From NCBI GenBank assembly GCA_019058295.1, contig JAHPZI010000021.1, forward strand, positions 64,001-128,000: a stretch of 64,000 nucleotides of DNA, written 5' to 3'. The notes beneath the pieces were generated by a model that saw only the letters and a program-made list of their open reading frames with translations, searched no databases and was not told the DNA's origin. A program made the translations under genes and the position numbers. Source of the stretch: Promethearchaeota archaeon. GTDB taxonomy: Archaea > Asgardarchaeota > Lokiarchaeia > Sigyniarchaeales > SOKP01. Shown here in pieces: positions 15,427 to 28,903 of the stretch; position 1 is the first letter of the stretch, and every line of letters starts with the position of its first letter.

Positions 15427-15589
15427 TTCAATCTAATCGAATTTTTTTTCTGAATTATATTAATTTCTTTTTCTTTTAAGAATTTATTACTATCCTAATA
15501 AAAATTCTTTCAGTGAAAAACCTATTCTTTATAAATAATAAATAAATAATAATATATAATATTCAAAATCAAGTAAACGGAAAAGAAAA

Positions 15590-15655
15590 ATGTTTAGAGA
15601 AAACTTAAAAGATCCTTCATCAGCTTGGTTTTGTTGTTGGCGTTGGCACGCATAG
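15590..15655 (+). CDS. trpL: putative Trp-rich leader peptide of trpDC-cupin-FBA (MFRENLKDPSSAWFCCWRWHA*)
   Basis: 21-codon ORF with 3 TGG codons in its last 9 codons, 162 nt upstream of trpD ATG; homologous to the leader before trpE. Confidence 0.8.
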   Translation: MFRENLKDPSSAWFCCWRWHA

Positions 15656-15777
15656 AGCGTGCGCAATGGCTTTAATTATTTTTAGAATTTCTTGCTTTTT
15701 TCTCTTTATAATTCTTAAAATTTTATGTTTGAATTGTAAAGAATAAAGGGGTTTTCTACAATATTAGAAATTCTAAA
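15624..15777 (+). promoter_or_regulatory. putative attenuator RNA (hairpin 1 over leader stop codon, hairpin 2 with U-rich arm)
   Basis: GCACGC(15646-51)/GCGTGC(15657-62) stem extended by CGTTG/CAATG; TTTAGAATTTCT(15681-92)/AGAAATTCTAAA(15766-77) outer stem and TCTTTATAATTC(15703-14)/GAATTGTAAAGA(15731-42) inner stem. Confidence 0.7.
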
Positions 15778-17706: not shown

Positions 17707-18018
17707 ATGGATTATAGAATAGATTTTGAGAAAATTAAATGGAAAGAACCTGCGATTGGTGTAAGATTTAAGTCTTTCATATCCAATAATAAACAAGTAC
17801 GCTTGGTTGAATTTACTGATGAATTTATAGAACCTGATTGGTGTACGAAAGGACATATAGGTTTTGTATTAGAAGGAGAATTAGAAATTAATTTTGATGG
17901 AAAGTTAGTTAAATATGGAGCGGATGATGGTATATTCATTCCTAAAGGACCAGAACATAAACACATGGCAAAATGCATAACTAAAACAGTAAAATTAATC
18001 TTAATAGAAGAAATTTAA
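17707..18018 (+). CDS. cupin-fold protein (DHCW-motif-like) inside the trp operon
   Basis: DWCTKGHIGFVLEGELEI…HKH cupin pattern. Confidence 0.8.
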   Translation: MDYRIDFEKIKWKEPAIGVRFKSFISNNKQVRLVEFTDEFIEPDWCTKGHIGFVLEGELEINFDGKLVKYGADDGIFIPKGPEHKHMAKCITKTVKLILIEEI

Positions 18019-20728: not shown

Positions 20729-21913
20729 ATGTCAAATAATATACTAAAAGTCGGTGTGATTGGGTGTGGAATTATTGCAAAAATAGGACACTTACCATGG
20801 TATAATCATTCAAAAGAGGCAAATATAGTCGCTTTAGCAGATCCCGATGAGAAGAAGCTTAAAAAAGCAGGAAAATTATATAATGTAGAGAAATTATATA
20901 CTGATCCAAATGATCTTATTGATGATCCTGAAATTGATGCTGTTAGTATTTGTTCACCTCATTGGGCTCATGCTCAACAAACAGTAAGAGCTGCTGATAA
21001 CGGAAAACATATTATTTGTGAGAAGCCTATTGGGACCGACTTAAATCAGATTGATGAGATGATTAAGGCTGTTGAGAAAAATCAGGTAATTTTCCAAACT
21101 GCTACACAAAAAAGATTTAGTCCAGGGTTCCAAATGATAAAAGAAGATCTATTAGAAGGAAAACTCGGTGATGTATTCCATGCGTCTATTTATTGGTATC
21201 ATTTCATACCTGACTTAGATATTCCATGGATAAGAAAATCTCTGGATTTTTTAAAGAAATTGGGTATTGATATAGAAAAAAATATGGGTGCATGGAGATT
21301 AACAGATGAAAGAGCAGGAGGGGGCGACTTAATGGATCATGTTCCTCACTATTATGATTTATTTAGATTTTGGTTTGGTGATGTCGCTACAGTAAGCGCT
21401 CAAGTGAGAAGAGTCTATAAAAGCAGAGCTCATGAGGATCATGGCGCAATGCTTTTTTCATTTAAAAATTGTGAAACAATTGCTGTTTTTGAAAGATCTC
21501 AGAATATAACTGGACGAGTAAAAGGTGAAGAATTAGGACGAATTCACGGCACGAAGGGTTCATATTACTTTGATGTGCCACATGAATATAACTTAGAACC
21601 AATGGAAATTAAAAAATTCATGTTCTCTTTAAAGAATTATATCGTGAATCGAAAGAAAAAGATAAAAATCAAGTATCCAAAAGATAAATGGAACCTTAGT
21701 TATGCTAGAGAAATTCGGAGTTTTATAAACCAATGTCTGGGAAAATCAAATGAGGATGTTGGATTTCCAGAAGAATGGATCCCAACAATCTATGATGGTA
21801 GGGCTGCTTTAGAAGGAGTCCTAGCGACTTATGAATCGTCTCGAACAAATCAAACTATCCATTTACCATTAAAAAGTTATTCTCCAATCAATTGGAAAAA
21901 TACAGTGGAGTGA
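20729..21913 (+). CDS. Gfo/Idh/MocA family oxidoreductase
   Basis: GVIGCG, HIICEKP, GGGDLMDHVPHYYD. Confidence 0.9.
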   Translation: MSNNILKVGVIGCGIIAKIGHLPWYNHSKEANIVALADPDEKKLKKAGKLYNVEKLYTDPNDLIDDPEIDAVSICSPHWAHAQQTVRAADNGKHIICEKPIGTDLNQIDEMIKAVEKNQVIFQTATQKRFSPGFQMIKEDLLEGKLGDVFHASIYWYHFIPDLDIPWIRKSLDFLKKLGIDIEKNMGAWRLTDERAGGGDLMDHVPHYYDLFRFWFGDVATVSAQVRRVYKSRAHEDHGAMLFSFKNCETIAVFERSQNITGRVKGEELGRIHGTKGSYYFDVPHEYNLEPMEIKKFMFSLKNYIVNRKKKIKIKYPKDKWNLSYAREIRSFINQCLGKSNEDVGFPEEWIPTIYDGRAALEGVLATYESSRTNQTIHLPLKSYSPINWKNTVE

Positions 21914-21925
21914 TTTATTAAAAAT

Positions 21926-22438
21926 ATGATTGATTATGGTCATACTTGCTTATTGATCTTTGCTCAAGGTACTTGGAAAGAAAACTATAGAATGAGATTT
22001 TTAAAGAAAATTAAAGCTAAGTTTATTACTTCAATGAAAATAGATGACATTGATCTCTGGGGCGAGAATGAGCAGATTCCTTTATTTGATCCTAATCATC
22101 CAGAAGCAAATGATAATCCCTGTGAATTATGTGATCCTTTATCTGAGATTTTTTTAAAAAAGAAAGGACAGAACGATGGTTTTATTCTTTTCTCACATAA
22201 CGTTCTTGGATGGGATGGAATGAAAGATTTTTTTCTATATATTTTAGGAGAATCAAATGTGAAAAAGATATATTACTTAGAATTGGATGGATTTTCTTAC
22301 TTAGTTAGTACAAAGGATAGGATTCCCGAAATCCTAAATGCTTTAAAAGAGAAGAAAGTCAATAGATCTACTTTCTTTGATCTATTTGAAAAAGAAAAGA
22401 TAGAATTTAGTATAATATATGAAATTTTAAAATATTAA
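21926..22438 (+). CDS. hypothetical protein
   Basis: ORF in operon-like spacing; no recognised motif. Confidence 0.65.
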   Translation: MIDYGHTCLLIFAQGTWKENYRMRFLKKIKAKFITSMKIDDIDLWGENEQIPLFDPNHPEANDNPCELCDPLSEIFLKKKGQNDGFILFSHNVLGWDGMKDFFLYILGESNVKKIYYLELDGFSYLVSTKDRIPEILNALKEKKVNRSTFFDLFEKEKIEFSIIYEILKY

Positions 22439-26388: not shown

Positions 26389-26592
26389 TTTAATATTCCC
26401 CTAGTCTTAGAAATCTCGAATTTTTTTATTATTAATTGTTTTTAGTTATCCTAATTTTTAAATATCATCATTCTATTTAACAAGCTTCGTTTTAAATATT
26501 AGAATAAAAGATTAATAATTGGATAAAAAAAATATAAATACAACCTAAACCTTATTCTATTAAAAAACCTCAAAACAAGTTGTTTACTAAGT

Positions 26593-26664
26593 ATGAATAA
26601 TATGAAAAATAGTGTTGATTTTCAAGAACCAACTTGGTTTTGGGACTGGCGTTGGCACGCATAG
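26593..26664 (+). CDS. trpL: putative Trp-rich leader peptide of trpEG (MNNMKNSVDFQEPTWFWDWRWHA*)
   Basis: 23-codon ORF (20 from ATG 26602) with 4 TGG codons in its last 9 codons, 146 nt upstream of trpE. Confidence 0.82.
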   Translation: MNNMKNSVDFQEPTWFWDWRWHA

Positions 26665-26736
26665 AACGTGCGCAATGGCTTAACTTATTTTAGGATTTCT
26701 TTTCTTATAACGCATATAAAGAATAAGGGATTCTAA
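26633..26736 (+). promoter_or_regulatory. putative attenuator RNA, homologous to 15624-15777
   Basis: 44/49 nt identical to 15624-15672; GCACG(26655-59)/CGTGC(26667-71) stem plus CGTTG/CAATG; second ~20-bp hairpin 26690-26736. Confidence 0.7.
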
Positions 26737-26810
26737 TTCAAATTTTAATTATTAAGTTTTTTATTCAATAAAATAAATGATAAAAGAAATAGAAAAATAG
26801 TGGAATTGTA

Positions 26811-28304
26811 ATGGAATTTGATATTCATATTGAAAAAATTGGAGAATTGGATGATATATTTGGGTTTTATAAATATTTAGTGAAACGTTATGATTTGAAA
26901 AAACATGCTTTATTAGAGTCCGCTTCAGAAAATACAAAAGAAACCTTATATAGTTTTATTGCAATGCAACCGGATTTCATGCTTGAAATTAATGAGGATA
27001 AGTTTAAAATATATGATATCTCTACTGCCCGAGGGGAAAGAATTAAAGAATACGTAGAATCTAGAGATCCTGCCGTGGAAAGACCGCATAATCCCTTGCC
27101 ATTTAAAGATAATGTCGAATATAATATGGTTGCGCTCGATACTTTGAGCCATCTCACACCTTATTCTAATCTTCCTTTCACAGAATTATTCCCAAGGAAC
27201 ATCTTTTACGGCGGGATGCTTGGGTATATAGGGTATGACGTAGTTGCTCCTTATGTGGGTTATAAATCTACAAGCGAATTTCCAGATATTTTAATGGGGC
27301 TCTATACAAAAGCATTGGTCTATTCACATAAATCAAATGCATTATTCATGATTGATAATAGCATTAATGATTATTCAAAAGATAAAGATATCCGATATCA
27401 ACTCAGCTTATTTAATAGAAATCATAATTCAGATGAAGTTGGAGAAATATCCTTGGATATTGAAGAGGTGGATGAATCTCATTTCAGATCCAACACAAGC
27501 AAGAGTGCTCATGAAAGAATGGTAGAAAAGACAAAAGAATACATTTATGATGGAGATATTATACAAGCAGTTATCTCCCGAAGGCTCTATACAGAGACAA
27601 AAATAGATCCTATGGCAATTTATGAGGTTCTAAGAGTTCTTAATCCATCGCAATATATGTACAATATAAATTTTGGTAATATTCGCATCATTGGGAGTAG
27701 TCCAGAAGCACTTATCTCAAAAAATAAAGATATTCTTAATACTGTGCCAATTGCCGGAACCATAAGAAGAGGCAAAACTCCAGAAGAAGATACAAAATTA
27801 GAAAAGGAATTGTTAGAGGACCCAAAGGAAAAGGCTGAACATATCATGCTTGTGGATTTAGCACGCAACGACCTCGCAAAAGTTTCATATCCAGGTTCTG
27901 TTGATACATTTGAACTCATGACAGTTCAAAAATATCAAAAAGTTCAACATATTGTTAGTAAAGTGAGAAGTAAGACACCTCTTGATGGGTATCAAGTTCT
28001 AAAAAGCGTATTCCCAGCAGGTACTCTTTCAGGAGCACCTAAAAAGCGTGCTATGGAAATAATACAAGAATTAGAAACAGAATCGAGAGGACCTTATGGG
28101 GGTGGTGTCGGCTATTTCTCATTTAATGGAGATATGGCGTTTGCCATTGCGATTAGGACACTTTTTGGGATGAATGGTACATATTTTGCTCAAGCAGGAG
28201 GCGGGATTGTCGCAGATAGCCAACCACATGAAGAGTACACAGAGACCTACAATAAGTTATATAGTGTTATAAAATCGATAAAAATTGCGGAGGCAAGAAA
28301 ATAA
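26811..28304 (+). CDS. trpE: anthranilate synthase component I
   Basis: LLES and NPSQYMY Trp-feedback motifs, PIAGT (TrpE-type, not PabB PIKGT), EHIMLVDLARND, FPAGTLSGAPK. Confidence 0.95.
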   Translation: MEFDIHIEKIGELDDIFGFYKYLVKRYDLKKHALLESASENTKETLYSFIAMQPDFMLEINEDKFKIYDISTARGERIKEYVESRDPAVERPHNPLPFKDNVEYNMVALDTLSHLTPYSNLPFTELFPRNIFYGGMLGYIGYDVVAPYVGYKSTSEFPDILMGLYTKALVYSHKSNALFMIDNSINDYSKDKDIRYQLSLFNRNHNSDEVGEISLDIEEVDESHFRSNTSKSAHERMVEKTKEYIYDGDIIQAVISRRLYTETKIDPMAIYEVLRVLNPSQYMYNINFGNIRIIGSSPEALISKNKDILNTVPIAGTIRRGKTPEEDTKLEKELLEDPKEKAEHIMLVDLARNDLAKVSYPGSVDTFELMTVQKYQKVQHIVSKVRSKTPLDGYQVLKSVFPAGTLSGAPKKRAMEIIQELETESRGPYGGGVGYFSFNGDMAFAIAIRTLFGMNGTYFAQAGGGIVADSQPHEEYTETYNKLYSVIKSIKIAEARK

Positions 28305-28903
28305 TGAAAATCCTATTTATTAACAATTATGATAGTTTTGTTTATAATTTGGTCAATTATATCTGTCAATTAGAACCCAACGGCCAAATTATTATCGAGG
28401 ATAACCATATTGCGGTGGACAAGATTAAAGAAATGAATGTTGATAAAATAATTATTTCACCAGGACCTGGACATCCTAAGTATGACACGGGCACAGTAAT
28501 TCCCATCATTAAAGAATTTTATTCCAAAATACCAATATTAGGAATTTGCCTAGGGCATCAAGCTATTGTCGAAGCTTTCGGCGAAGATGAGAATATGGAA
28601 TATGTGGGCAGAGCTAAAGTAGGGCCCATGCACGGCAAGGAATCTAAAGTCTTTCACGACCAAGAAACAATTCTTAAGGACATCCCTAATCCACTCCAAG
28701 TAATTAGATATCACTCACTTTCCGCAAAATCCGATATTTTACCCCAAAACCTTAAAATTAGTGCGACTGCGGATGATGGCACAATCATGGGGGTTAGGCA
28801 TAAACAATATCCTATAGAAGGGGTCCAATTCCATCCCGAGTCGATAAAAATGAAACCTTATGGAATACAATTATTAAAAAATTTCTTAGAATTAAAAATA
28901 TAA
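28304..28903 (+). CDS. trpG: anthranilate synthase component II (class I glutamine amidotransferase)
   Basis: [36 protein letters not shown]; TAATG overlap with trpE. Confidence 0.95.
   Translation: MKILFINNYDSFVYNLVNYICQLEPNGQIIIEDNHIAVDKIKEMNVDKIIISPGPGHPKYDTGTVIPIIKEFYSKIPILGICLGHQAIVEAFGEDENMEYVGRAKVGPMHGKESKVFHDQETILKDIPNPLQVIRYHSLSAKSDILPQNLKISATADDGTIMGVRHKQYPIEGVQFHPESIKMKPYGIQLLKNFLELKI

What the first reader, a model, noticed from the sequence alone, without database searches (positions are those of the whole stretch)
26547..26736. Second, independently diverged copy of the Trp leader before trpE confirms a conserved element
Seen: uORF MNNMKNSVDFQEPTWFWDWRWHA* (26593-26664) with 4 Trp. 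The N-terminal halves of the two leaders differ, but 26633-26681 is 44/49 identical to 15624-15672, keeping W-F-x-x-W-R-W-H-A-TAG and hairpin 1. Hairpin 2 is conserved in outline (TTAG[A/G]ATTTCT…TAAAGAATAA[A]GGG…ATTCTAA) despite different lengths (47 vs 97 nt). Upstream motifs are shared too: AAACC(T)TATTCT and TCAAAA(T)CAAGT (15563-74 vs 26570-80), possibly promoter elements. Inference: selection maintains the Trp codons and both structures. The invariant WRWHA-stop could alternatively act as a nascent-chain arrest motif (TnaC-like sensing of free Trp at termination), and 4 vs 3 Trp codons may tune the committed step more tightly.
Basis: partly seen in the sequence, partly recalled or inferred. 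Interest (0 to 1): 0.85.

Follow-up and report, generated by a model that had tools for sequence, protein, structure and literature searches.

The report
Tryptophan-sensing leader before archaeal trpE
A 23-codon mini-gene with four tryptophan codons, folded into a conserved three-helix RNA, precedes the trpE-trpG genes of this Asgard archaeon and very probably lets a ribosome sense tryptophan shortage, a control known from bacteria for which I found no report in archaea.

Summary
The uORF 26593-26664 ends in four Trp codons and shares 44 of 49 bases with the leader before trpD; shuffled controls reach at most 32. Both hairpins are present.

The genome is an Asgard (Promethearchaeota) MAG. A covariance model finds the leader in 21 of 135 family genomes. 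In the 18 loci I checked by tblastn it lies directly before trpE, trpA or trpD wherever a trp gene is in reach. Many genomes without it lack trpE.

- **The "promoter motif" is an RNA helix arm.** The motif at 26570-26580 pairs with the first two Trp codons, with covariation.
- **The frame is selected.** The variable N-terminal part has 0 stops in frame, against 25 and 35 in the other two frames.
- **Only the Trp codons are conserved as amino acids.** This argues against a TnaC-like arrest peptide.
- **No classical antiterminator exists.** Hairpin 2 folds whatever the ribosome does.

Diverged Trp-x-Trp leaders precede trpD operons and trpB2 in three sister families.

My best reading is ribosome-mediated attenuation. 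Stalling on UGG keeps the two sensor helices open, so polymerase reads through oligo-U. That output step is inferred, not shown.

This scan had already noted similar Trp leaders in at least 17 other genomes, those listed being Asgard.

The parts
26533..26540 (+). TATAAATA, the likely archaeal TATA box of the leader promoter. The predicted transcription start lies a few bases before helix arm A.
   Evidence: The same 8-mer starts 33-39 nt upstream of arm A in nearly all 24 leaders. No comparably conserved box lies between the T-run and trpE. The start site itself is inferred, not mapped.
26569..26585 (+). Helix arm A, in the 5' untranslated region. It ends 6-7 nt before the uORF start codon.
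   Evidence: RNAduplex gives -15.6 kcal/mol against arm B (z -3.7), and the pairing is present in every leader. Covariation was counted on a MAFFT alignment.
26593..26664 (+). Leader uORF of 23 codons, with Trp at codons 15, 17, 19 and 21 and a TAG stop.
   Evidence: An ATG-to-stop frame of 17-26 codons is conserved in 24 leaders. The variable part has 0 stops in frame 0, against 25 and 35 in the other frames.
26626..26644 (+). Helix arm B. It holds the first two Trp codons and pairs with arm A.
   Evidence: the A:B helix is in the full-length minimum-free-energy fold.
26648..26679 (+). Hairpin 1 (C:D). The 5' arm holds Trp codons 3 and 4, His and Ala; the stop codon sits in the loop.
   Evidence: On the alignment 93-94% of cells are paired. 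The stem sequence differs but the hairpin is kept in G013 and G018.
26690..26736 (+). Hairpin 2 (E:F). The 11-bp base is conserved in sequence and the interior varies in length. Its role is not explained.
   Evidence: It persists when the ribosome footprint is masked. This inverted pair occurs only at the two trp leaders in the genome.
26757..26762 (+). T6 run 20 nt after hairpin 2, a candidate archaeal oligo-T terminator (the attenuation point).
   Evidence: A T6-T10 run lies 91-101 nt after the uORF stop in the 10 trpE/trpA-type leaders that carry the consensus hairpin 2. T6+ runs are 8-9 times enriched just after stop codons genome-wide. Termination here is inferred.
26811..28903 (+). trpE (26811-28304) and trpG (28304-28903), the regulated genes.
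   Evidence: Pfam Chorismate_bind plus Anth_synt_I_N, and GATase.
15530..15775 (+). Paralogous leader before trpD-trpC-cupin-trpF-trpB-trpA: TATA 15530-15537, arm A 15564-15574, uORF 15590-15655, hairpin 2 15683-15775.

Best explanation
This is a cis-acting, translation-dependent tryptophan sensor (a leader-peptide attenuator) of the trpE-trpG operon in an Asgard archaeon. The leader RNA is transcribed from the TATA box at 26533. It begins a few bases before arm A and carries a 23-codon uORF whose last nine codons hold four UGG. Without a ribosome those codons are fully paired: the first two with the 5' UTR (helix A:B), the last two in hairpin 1 (C:D), whose loop holds the stop codon. A pioneer ribosome must melt both helices. 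When charged tRNA-Trp is scarce, the ribosome parks on the UGG codons, A:B and C:D stay open, and RNA polymerase passes the U-rich stretch and the T6 run into trpE. When Trp is plentiful, the ribosome reaches the stop and leaves. A:B then closes; because arm A ends 6-7 nt from the AUG, this should block further loading. C:D folds, and transcription ends at the oligo-U tracts. Shown here: the uORF, its selection, the three helices, the link to trp genes, and the archaeal host. Inferred: that the uORF is translated, that stalling is the signal, and above all that the output is transcription termination. Hairpin 2 is conserved, but this model gives it no role.
For: The host is archaeal. TBP is in the genome. 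Relatives carrying the same leader are titled Promethearchaeota, Promethearchaeia or Hermodarchaeota. The leader is in 21 of 135 family genomes. In the 18 loci checked by tblastn it lies directly upstream of trpE, trpA(-trpE) or trpD wherever a trp gene is in reach, although the gene order differs between genomes. Many genomes without the leader lack trpE. The frame is open in 24 of 24 distinct variable regions, against 5 and 1 of 24 in the other frames. Start and stop positions are conserved while stop identity varies. Helix A:B is present in every leader, with z from -1.1 to -6.3 (below -2 in 19 of 24). On a MAFFT alignment 89.7% of cells are paired, against 29-48% when the partner is slid. 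Four pairs change on both sides, and 0 of 500 shuffles reach the observed covariation score. C-G and U-G are equally frequent at one pair, which fits RNA rather than DNA. Diverged Trp-x-Trp uORFs lie upstream of trpD operons in genus g4 and in families f2, f3 and f4. In f2 genomes without trpE they lie before a TrpB-like enzyme. There too a hairpin begins at the stop codon, with one compensatory change. Oligo-T marks gene ends in this genome. In a degenerate copy before a trpA fragment, two of the Trp codons have become stop codons.
Against: No expression data exist, so translation and termination are untested. No alternative (antiterminator) pairing of arm A or arm D with downstream sequence is conserved, and hairpin 2 folds regardless of ribosome position. 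The link from sensor to output is therefore missing. A ribosome sitting at the stop codon would also cover hairpin 1, so the model needs a kinetic race between ribosome release and pause escape. In this particular leader the stretch right after hairpin 1 has only T4 runs; the first T6 lies 92 nt after the stop. T-run position differs between leader classes: after hairpin 2 in trpE/trpA types, inside it in others. Archaeal RNA polymerase is not known to need hairpins for termination (my own knowledge). The uORF has no clear Shine-Dalgarno sequence.
Confidence: 0.7

Rival explanations
1. Nascent-peptide arrest (TnaC-like or fungal arginine-attenuator-like). The Trp-rich C-terminus senses free tryptophan in the exit tunnel and stalls the ribosome at the stop codon. 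The stalled ribosome then blocks downstream expression.
For: The stop codon is always at the same place, in the loop of hairpin 1, and the alternating W-x-W-x-W-x-W pattern is regular. The sign of regulation would fit a biosynthetic operon.
Against: The residues next to the stop are not conserved: A, V or E at -1; H or R at -2; R, H, C, P or S at -4. Changes at -2 and -8 go with changes in the RNA partner. All three stop codons occur. The sister families end differently, for example WPWH, WAWRL and WSWRG. No known arrest motif is present.
Confidence: 0.07
2. The leader is a separate small transcription unit (an sRNA or micropeptide gene ending at the T-run), and trpE has its own promoter in 26763-26810. 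Any regulation then acts in trans or by promoter interference.
For: A strong TATA box lies upstream, and a T6-T10 run lies about 50 nt before the trp start codon in trpE/trpA-type leaders. T-rich AT-rich sequence could itself serve as a TATA box. No antiterminator was found.
Against: No conserved TATA-like box lies between the T-run and the trp genes in relatives. Leaders of other classes lack the T-run after hairpin 2. In the loci checked the element lies immediately upstream of, and on the same strand as, a trp gene after several operon rearrangements, as expected for action in cis.
Confidence: 0.1
3. It is a structured RNA that binds a protein, tRNA or ligand (riboswitch-, T-box- or TRAP-like), and the reading frame is incidental.
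For: There are three conserved helices. The base of hairpin 2 and the loop of hairpin 1 are conserved in sequence beyond what pairing needs. Hairpin 2 has no role in the ribosome model.
Against: The frame is under selection. Start and stop are conserved. Trp codons persist in sister families where the RNA sequence is unrelated. No Rfam family matches, even at E up to 10. A protein partner for hairpin 2 alongside the ribosome sensor is not excluded.
Confidence: 0.08
4. The shared sequences are DNA operators for a Trp repressor of the TrpY or Tar kind.
For: Known archaeal trp regulation is by DNA-binding proteins (PMC6737238). Hairpin 2 is an inverted repeat at the DNA level.
Against: The half-sites would be 25 to about 90 bp apart. 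Variation is G.U-compatible and strand-specific. Helix arms A and B are about 45-60 nt apart and covary. A repressor acting in addition at the promoter is not excluded.
Confidence: 0.05

Closest known systems
Escherichia coli / Salmonella trpL leader-peptide transcription attenuator (Rfam RF00513 Trp_leader)
   Same: It is a short uORF rich in Trp codons directly upstream of trp biosynthesis genes. The Trp codons and the stop codon lie in or next to the 5' arm of a hairpin (region 1:2 in E. coli, C:D here). A second hairpin and a U-run follow at a similar distance. The logic is the same: ribosome speed on UGG reports charged tRNA-Trp.
   Different: The host is an archaeon with a TATA-box promoter and oligo-T terminators. 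There is no match to RF00513. No 2:3 antiterminator exists. An extra helix pairs the 5' UTR with the first Trp codons. The Trp codons alternate (W-x-W-x-W-x-W) rather than sitting in tandem. The U-run is not adjacent to hairpin 2.
Bacteroid-trp leader motif (a Rfam family, recalled from memory as RF01692) and other predicted bacterial Trp leaders
   Same: It is a conserved RNA before trp genes that contains a small Trp-codon ORF.
   Different: No Rfam family matched at the gathering threshold or at E up to 10. The domain of life and the architecture differ.
Ribosome-occlusion attenuators such as E. coli pyrBI (from my own knowledge)
   Same: The leader ORF runs into the terminator-proximal hairpin, so the ribosome itself, not an antiterminator helix, decides whether the hairpin forms. 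This is the closest match to the logic I propose.
   Different: In pyrBI the signal is UTP-dependent polymerase pausing, and a close-following ribosome prevents termination. Here the signal would be stalling on UGG inside the hairpin arm.
TrpY (Methanothermobacter) and Tar (Thermococcus) protein regulators of archaeal trp operons
   Same: They regulate the same genes in the same domain of life (PMC6737238).
   Different: Those are DNA-binding transcription factors acting at promoters. This is an RNA and uORF element inside the transcript.

Membership tests
trpL-type leader-peptide attenuator (Rfam RF00513) | Short translated ORF with clustered Trp codons upstream of trp biosynthesis genes | tested here: met
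   The uORF has 23 codons and 4 UGG, lies before trpE-trpG, and its frame is under selection. Translation itself is not shown.
trpL-type leader-peptide attenuator (Rfam RF00513) | Mutually exclusive 1:2, 2:3 and 3:4 pairings (antiterminator against terminator) | tested here: not met
   Arm A and arm D have no conserved pairing with downstream segments. Hairpin 2 is unchanged when the ribosome footprint is masked.
trpL-type leader-peptide attenuator (Rfam RF00513) | Intrinsic terminator: G+C-rich hairpin immediately followed by a U-run | tested here: inconclusive
   Hairpin 1 is G+C-rich and followed by U-rich sequence with only T4 runs. Hairpin 2 is A+U-rich, with a T6 run 20 nt later. The host uses oligo-T terminators.
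trpL-type leader-peptide attenuator (Rfam RF00513) | Match to the family covariance model | tested here: not met
   No hit at the gathering threshold in the window, nor at E up to 10 in either leader.
TnaC-type tryptophan-dependent arrest peptide | Invariant sensor residues and an invariant C-terminal residue and stop-codon context | tested here: not met
   Only the Trp positions are conserved. Residues -1, -2, -4 and -8 vary, and all three stop codons occur.
T-box / riboswitch / other curated RNA families | Match to an Rfam model | tested here: not met
   Searches gave only chance-level hits (E 0.5 or higher, far below the gathering scores).
Asgard Trp-leader element (this scan's own recurrent finding) | Trp-x-Trp uORF in a conserved folded leader directly before trp or trpB2 genes in Asgard genomes | tested here: met
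   Earlier notes on other genomes are listed.

The most novel reading that the evidence does not exclude
Asgard archaea run a true ribosome-mediated attenuation system that works without an antiterminator helix. A single pioneer ribosome, by parking on UGG codons that are otherwise locked into a 5'-UTR helix and a stop-codon hairpin, decides whether archaeal RNA polymerase terminates at oligo-U. It may do so through contact or competition with the Spt4/5 and FttA termination machinery rather than through RNA refolding. That would be the first leader-peptide attenuation in Archaea and a new coupling logic in the closest prokaryotic relatives of eukaryotes.
Probability: 0.35. Interest if true: 0.9.

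Novelty: new variant of a known kind. Interest (0 to 1): 0.8.

Why it matters
Leader-peptide attenuation is the textbook case of coupled transcription and translation being used for regulation, and it is established only in bacteria. The archaeal trp regulation I found described works through DNA-binding proteins (PMC6737238). Four full-text searches found no paper on leader-peptide attenuation in archaea or Asgard archaea.

A conserved Trp-codon uORF wired into RNA helices before trp genes, across four families of one Asgard order, would show that the lineage closest to eukaryotes uses ribosome position to control gene expression. Because no antiterminator is present, it would also make a concrete question testable: how does a ribosome influence termination by an archaeal, Pol II-like polymerase?

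A practical point follows. The sister-family genome G152 is a single 6.04-Mb contig with two such leaders. Its size matches a cultured Lokiarchaeon, but I did not verify the identity. If it is that strain, the experiment is feasible.

Tried and rejected
- **Rfam.** No family matched at either threshold.
- **Spacer as antiterminator.** I considered that the spacer before hairpin 2, which resembles arm B, is an alternative partner of arm A. Duplex energies are no better than shuffles (z about 0) and cognate pairs are no better than non-cognate pairs. Rejected.
- **Pairing of arm A or arm D with downstream sequence.** I tested both against everything up to 260 nt downstream. There was no conserved site. 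Rejected.
- **Hairpin 2 as a generic genomic element.** The inverted pair occurs only at the two trp leaders. Rejected.
- **Collection-wide pattern scan.** The scan of genome contigs was too loose: of 140 loci only four were true leaders. These gave organism names but no distribution figure.
- **Positional promoter signal.** Profiling upstream of approximate gene starts gave no clear TATA or T-run position. It neither supports nor excludes a second promoter.
- **Other amino-acid leaders in G000.** The scan gave mostly noise and I did not pursue it.
- **AAACC(T)TATTCT as a shared promoter motif.** The two copies lie on opposite sides of the TATA box. A related CCTTA-type stretch about 10-18 nt after the TATA box recurs in trpE/trpA-type leaders and may mark the start-site region. 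Untested.

Full report
**Observation**

The sequence is as described. The uORF runs from 26593 to 26664 and has 23 codons. UGG lies at 26635, 26641, 26647 and 26653, and TAG at 26662. It precedes trpE (26811-28304) and trpG (28304-28903), identified by Pfam.

The paralogous uORF at 15590-15655 precedes trpD, trpC, a cupin gene, trpF, trpB and trpA. The 49-base stretch 26633-26681 matches 15624-15672 at 44 positions. This is the best 49-mer match between the two intergenic regions; shuffles gave at most 32.

Minimum-free-energy folds show hairpin 1 (26648-26679, stop codon in the loop) and hairpin 2 (26690-26736) in this leader, and the equivalent pair in the trpD leader.

**Host**

The window is part of a 3.2-Mb, 30.7% G+C metagenome-assembled genome of 30 contigs. 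The genome encodes TBP, which among the 14 control genomes rings only in the four archaea.

Independent assemblies carrying near-identical leaders and 93-95% identical TrpE or TrpD are titled Promethearchaeota, Promethearchaeia, Hermodarchaeota or "uncultured archaeon". Promethearchaeota is the Asgard phylum in the current taxonomy.

Promoters are therefore TATA boxes. Terminators are expected to be oligo-T runs, and T6+ runs on the coding strand are indeed 8-9 times enriched in the 40 nt after stop codons in this genome.

**Distribution and gene context**

BLAST and a covariance model built from 15 leaders find the element in 21 of 135 genomes of the family, in 7 of 13 genera.

I checked 18 loci by tblastn. 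Wherever a trp gene is in reach, the leader lies directly upstream of it and on the same strand. The gene is trpE in some genomes, trpA followed by trpE in others, and trpD in others, including one trpD-C-F-B-A-E operon with a single leader. The element has therefore stayed attached to trp genes through several rearrangements.

Many family genomes without the leader also lack trpE. A third copy in G004 precedes only a trpA fragment. In it two UGG have become TAG and TGA and no open frame remains, the decay expected once the regulated gene is lost.

**Is the frame real?**

All 24 leaders that are neither truncated nor degenerate have an ATG-to-stop frame of 17-26 codons ending at the same position. 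The 6-14 codons between the start and the Trp block are barely conserved in sequence. Yet they contain 0 in-frame stops, against 25 and 35 in the other two frames. Frame 0 is open in 24 of 24 distinct sequences, against 5 and 1.

The chance of an open frame is 0.2-0.6 per sequence on shuffling. The sequences are related, so the product of these values overstates significance, but at least a dozen are dissimilar. The stop is TAG, TAA or TGA at a fixed place. This is good comparative evidence for translation.

**A third helix**

- RNAduplex finds this A:B pairing in every leader, at -9.5 to -19.5 kcal/mol and z from -1.1 to -6.3 against shuffled 5' regions; z is below -2 in 19 of 24.
- It appears in full-length minimum-free-energy folds.
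- On a MAFFT alignment not fitted to any structure, 89.7% of cells pair. Sliding the partner by 1-3 columns gives 29-48%.
- Four A:B pairs change on both sides, and no shuffle in 500 reaches the covariation score.
- One pair is C-G in 11 sequences and U-G in 11, which fits RNA rather than double-stranded DNA.
- Examples of joint change: the F codon becomes an I codon in G017 together with an A-to-U change in arm A, and ACT becomes ACG in G014 together with a change in arm A.

Arm A ends 6-7 nt before the AUG in most leaders. A TATAAATA box starts 33-39 nt upstream of arm A in nearly all leaders. That spacing puts the expected start site a few bases before arm A, so arm A is the 5' end of the RNA.

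**Hairpin 1**

Hairpin 1 folds with the stop codon in or at the loop in nearly all leaders, and 93-94% of cells are paired. G013 and G018 keep the hairpin with different stem sequences.

**Codon sensing or arrest peptide?**

Only the Trp positions are conserved as amino acids:
- Position -1 is A, V or E.
- Position -2 is H or R.
- Position -4 is R, H, C, P or S.
- Position -8 is F, I or V.

Several of these changes go with changes in the pairing partner. Sister lineages end in quite different peptides that share only W-x-W. This pattern fits sensing at the UGG codons plus RNA structure. It does not fit a defined TnaC-like arrest motif.

Individual Trp codons can be lost. The trpD-type leaders of this genus carry TGT (Cys) at one to three of the four positions.

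**Breadth**

Genera and families with trp genes but no hit to my model still carry W-x-W uORFs:
- Upstream of trpD operons in genus g4 (same TATA box, a shortened stop-codon hairpin) and in families f2, f3 and f4. The f3 example has an A:B-like helix.
- In family f2 the uORF ends in WPWH, and a 13-bp hairpin that starts at the stop codon shows an A-U to G-C compensatory change.
- In four f2 genomes that gave no TrpE match, and at a second locus of G152, this leader precedes a TrpB-like enzyme. The G038 protein scores 618 bits against NCBIfam NF009057, whose cut-off is 366; the others share its N-terminus.

The common theme is Trp codons in, or just upstream of, the 5' arm of a hairpin that holds the stop codon, plus a 5' helix closing over the first half of the uORF.

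**What is missing**

There is no antiterminator. Neither arm A nor arm D has conserved complementarity to the spacer, to hairpin 2 or to anything up to 260 nt downstream. Hairpin 2 folds unchanged when a ribosome footprint on the Trp codons is forced single-stranded.

Hairpin 2 is specific to the trp leaders. Its 11-bp base is conserved, with only G.U-compatible variation, while its interior ranges from about 25 to 90 nt.

In the 10 trpE/trpA-type leaders with the consensus hairpin 2, a T6-T10 run lies 91-101 nt after the uORF stop, 12-21 nt after the hairpin where I measured it. Here it is 26757-26762. In other classes the T-run lies inside hairpin 2 or is absent. No conserved TATA box lies between the T-run and the trp genes.

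**Mechanism I commit to**

The mechanism is ribosome-mediated attenuation by direct occlusion.
1. A pioneer ribosome loads before arm B is made.
2. If Trp-tRNA is scarce, it parks on the UGG codons and keeps A:B and C:D open while polymerase passes the U-tracts.
3. If Trp-tRNA is plentiful, the ribosome terminates at the stop codon.
4. A:B then recloses next to the start codon and limits reloading, C:D folds, and polymerase stops at oligo-U.

The sensor half rests on comparative evidence. The output half is inference. It needs a kinetic race and leaves hairpin 2 unexplained. My confidence is 0.7 that this is a cis-acting, translation-dependent Trp sensor, and roughly 0.4-0.45 that the output is transcription termination as described.

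**Known or new?**

Four full-text searches found no paper on leader-peptide attenuation in archaea or Asgard archaea. The archaeal trp regulators described in the one paper I read are the proteins TrpY and Tar (PMC6737238).

This scan has already reported similar Trp leaders in at least 17 other genomes, those listed being Asgard, and in this genome's trpD leader. The present finding is one more instance. It adds the paralog comparison, helix A:B, the frame test, the test against an arrest peptide, and the negative antiterminator result.

Noticed in passing
G000 contig C22:30303-33335 (outside the window): There is a tight cluster of 27 tRNA genes covering most amino acids, in two divergent blocks. 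Only 7 other tRNAs were found in the rest of the assembly.
   Followed up: no
window 17707-18018: A 103-aa cupin gene sits inside the trp operon between trpC and trpF. It matches Pfam Cupin_2, and DHCW-motif cupin weakly. It is not a standard trp gene.
   Followed up: partly
window 20729-22438: A GFO/IDH/MocA oxidoreductase and a 170-aa ORF with no Pfam or NCBIfam match follow trpA on the same strand. The 170-aa ORF also follows trpA in G009, at 63% identity.
   Followed up: partly
G000 contigs C10, C17, C22, C26, C27, C28 (outside the window): Short Met/Thr-rich ORFs of the type MTMMTTMR recur 200-280 nt upstream of several large genes. They may be a repeated 5' element or Met-codon uORFs.
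   Followed up: no
L183 and L189 (G152, a single 6.04-Mb contig, sister family): Two paralogous WPWH leaders, 78% identical over 240 nt, lie before the trpD operon and before a TrpB-like gene. The genome size suggests a cultured Lokiarchaeon, but I did not verify the identity.
   Followed up: partly
L178:1133-1500 and L179 (genus g4): An unannotated ORF of roughly 100 codons lies between the Trp leader and trpD in G012 and G024. Its function is unknown. It may be the first gene of that operon.
   Followed up: no
window 26547-26558 and relatives: A CCTTA(N)TT stretch 10-18 nt after the TATA box recurs in trpE/trpA-type leaders of several genera. It may be the initiator or start-site region.
   Followed up: partly
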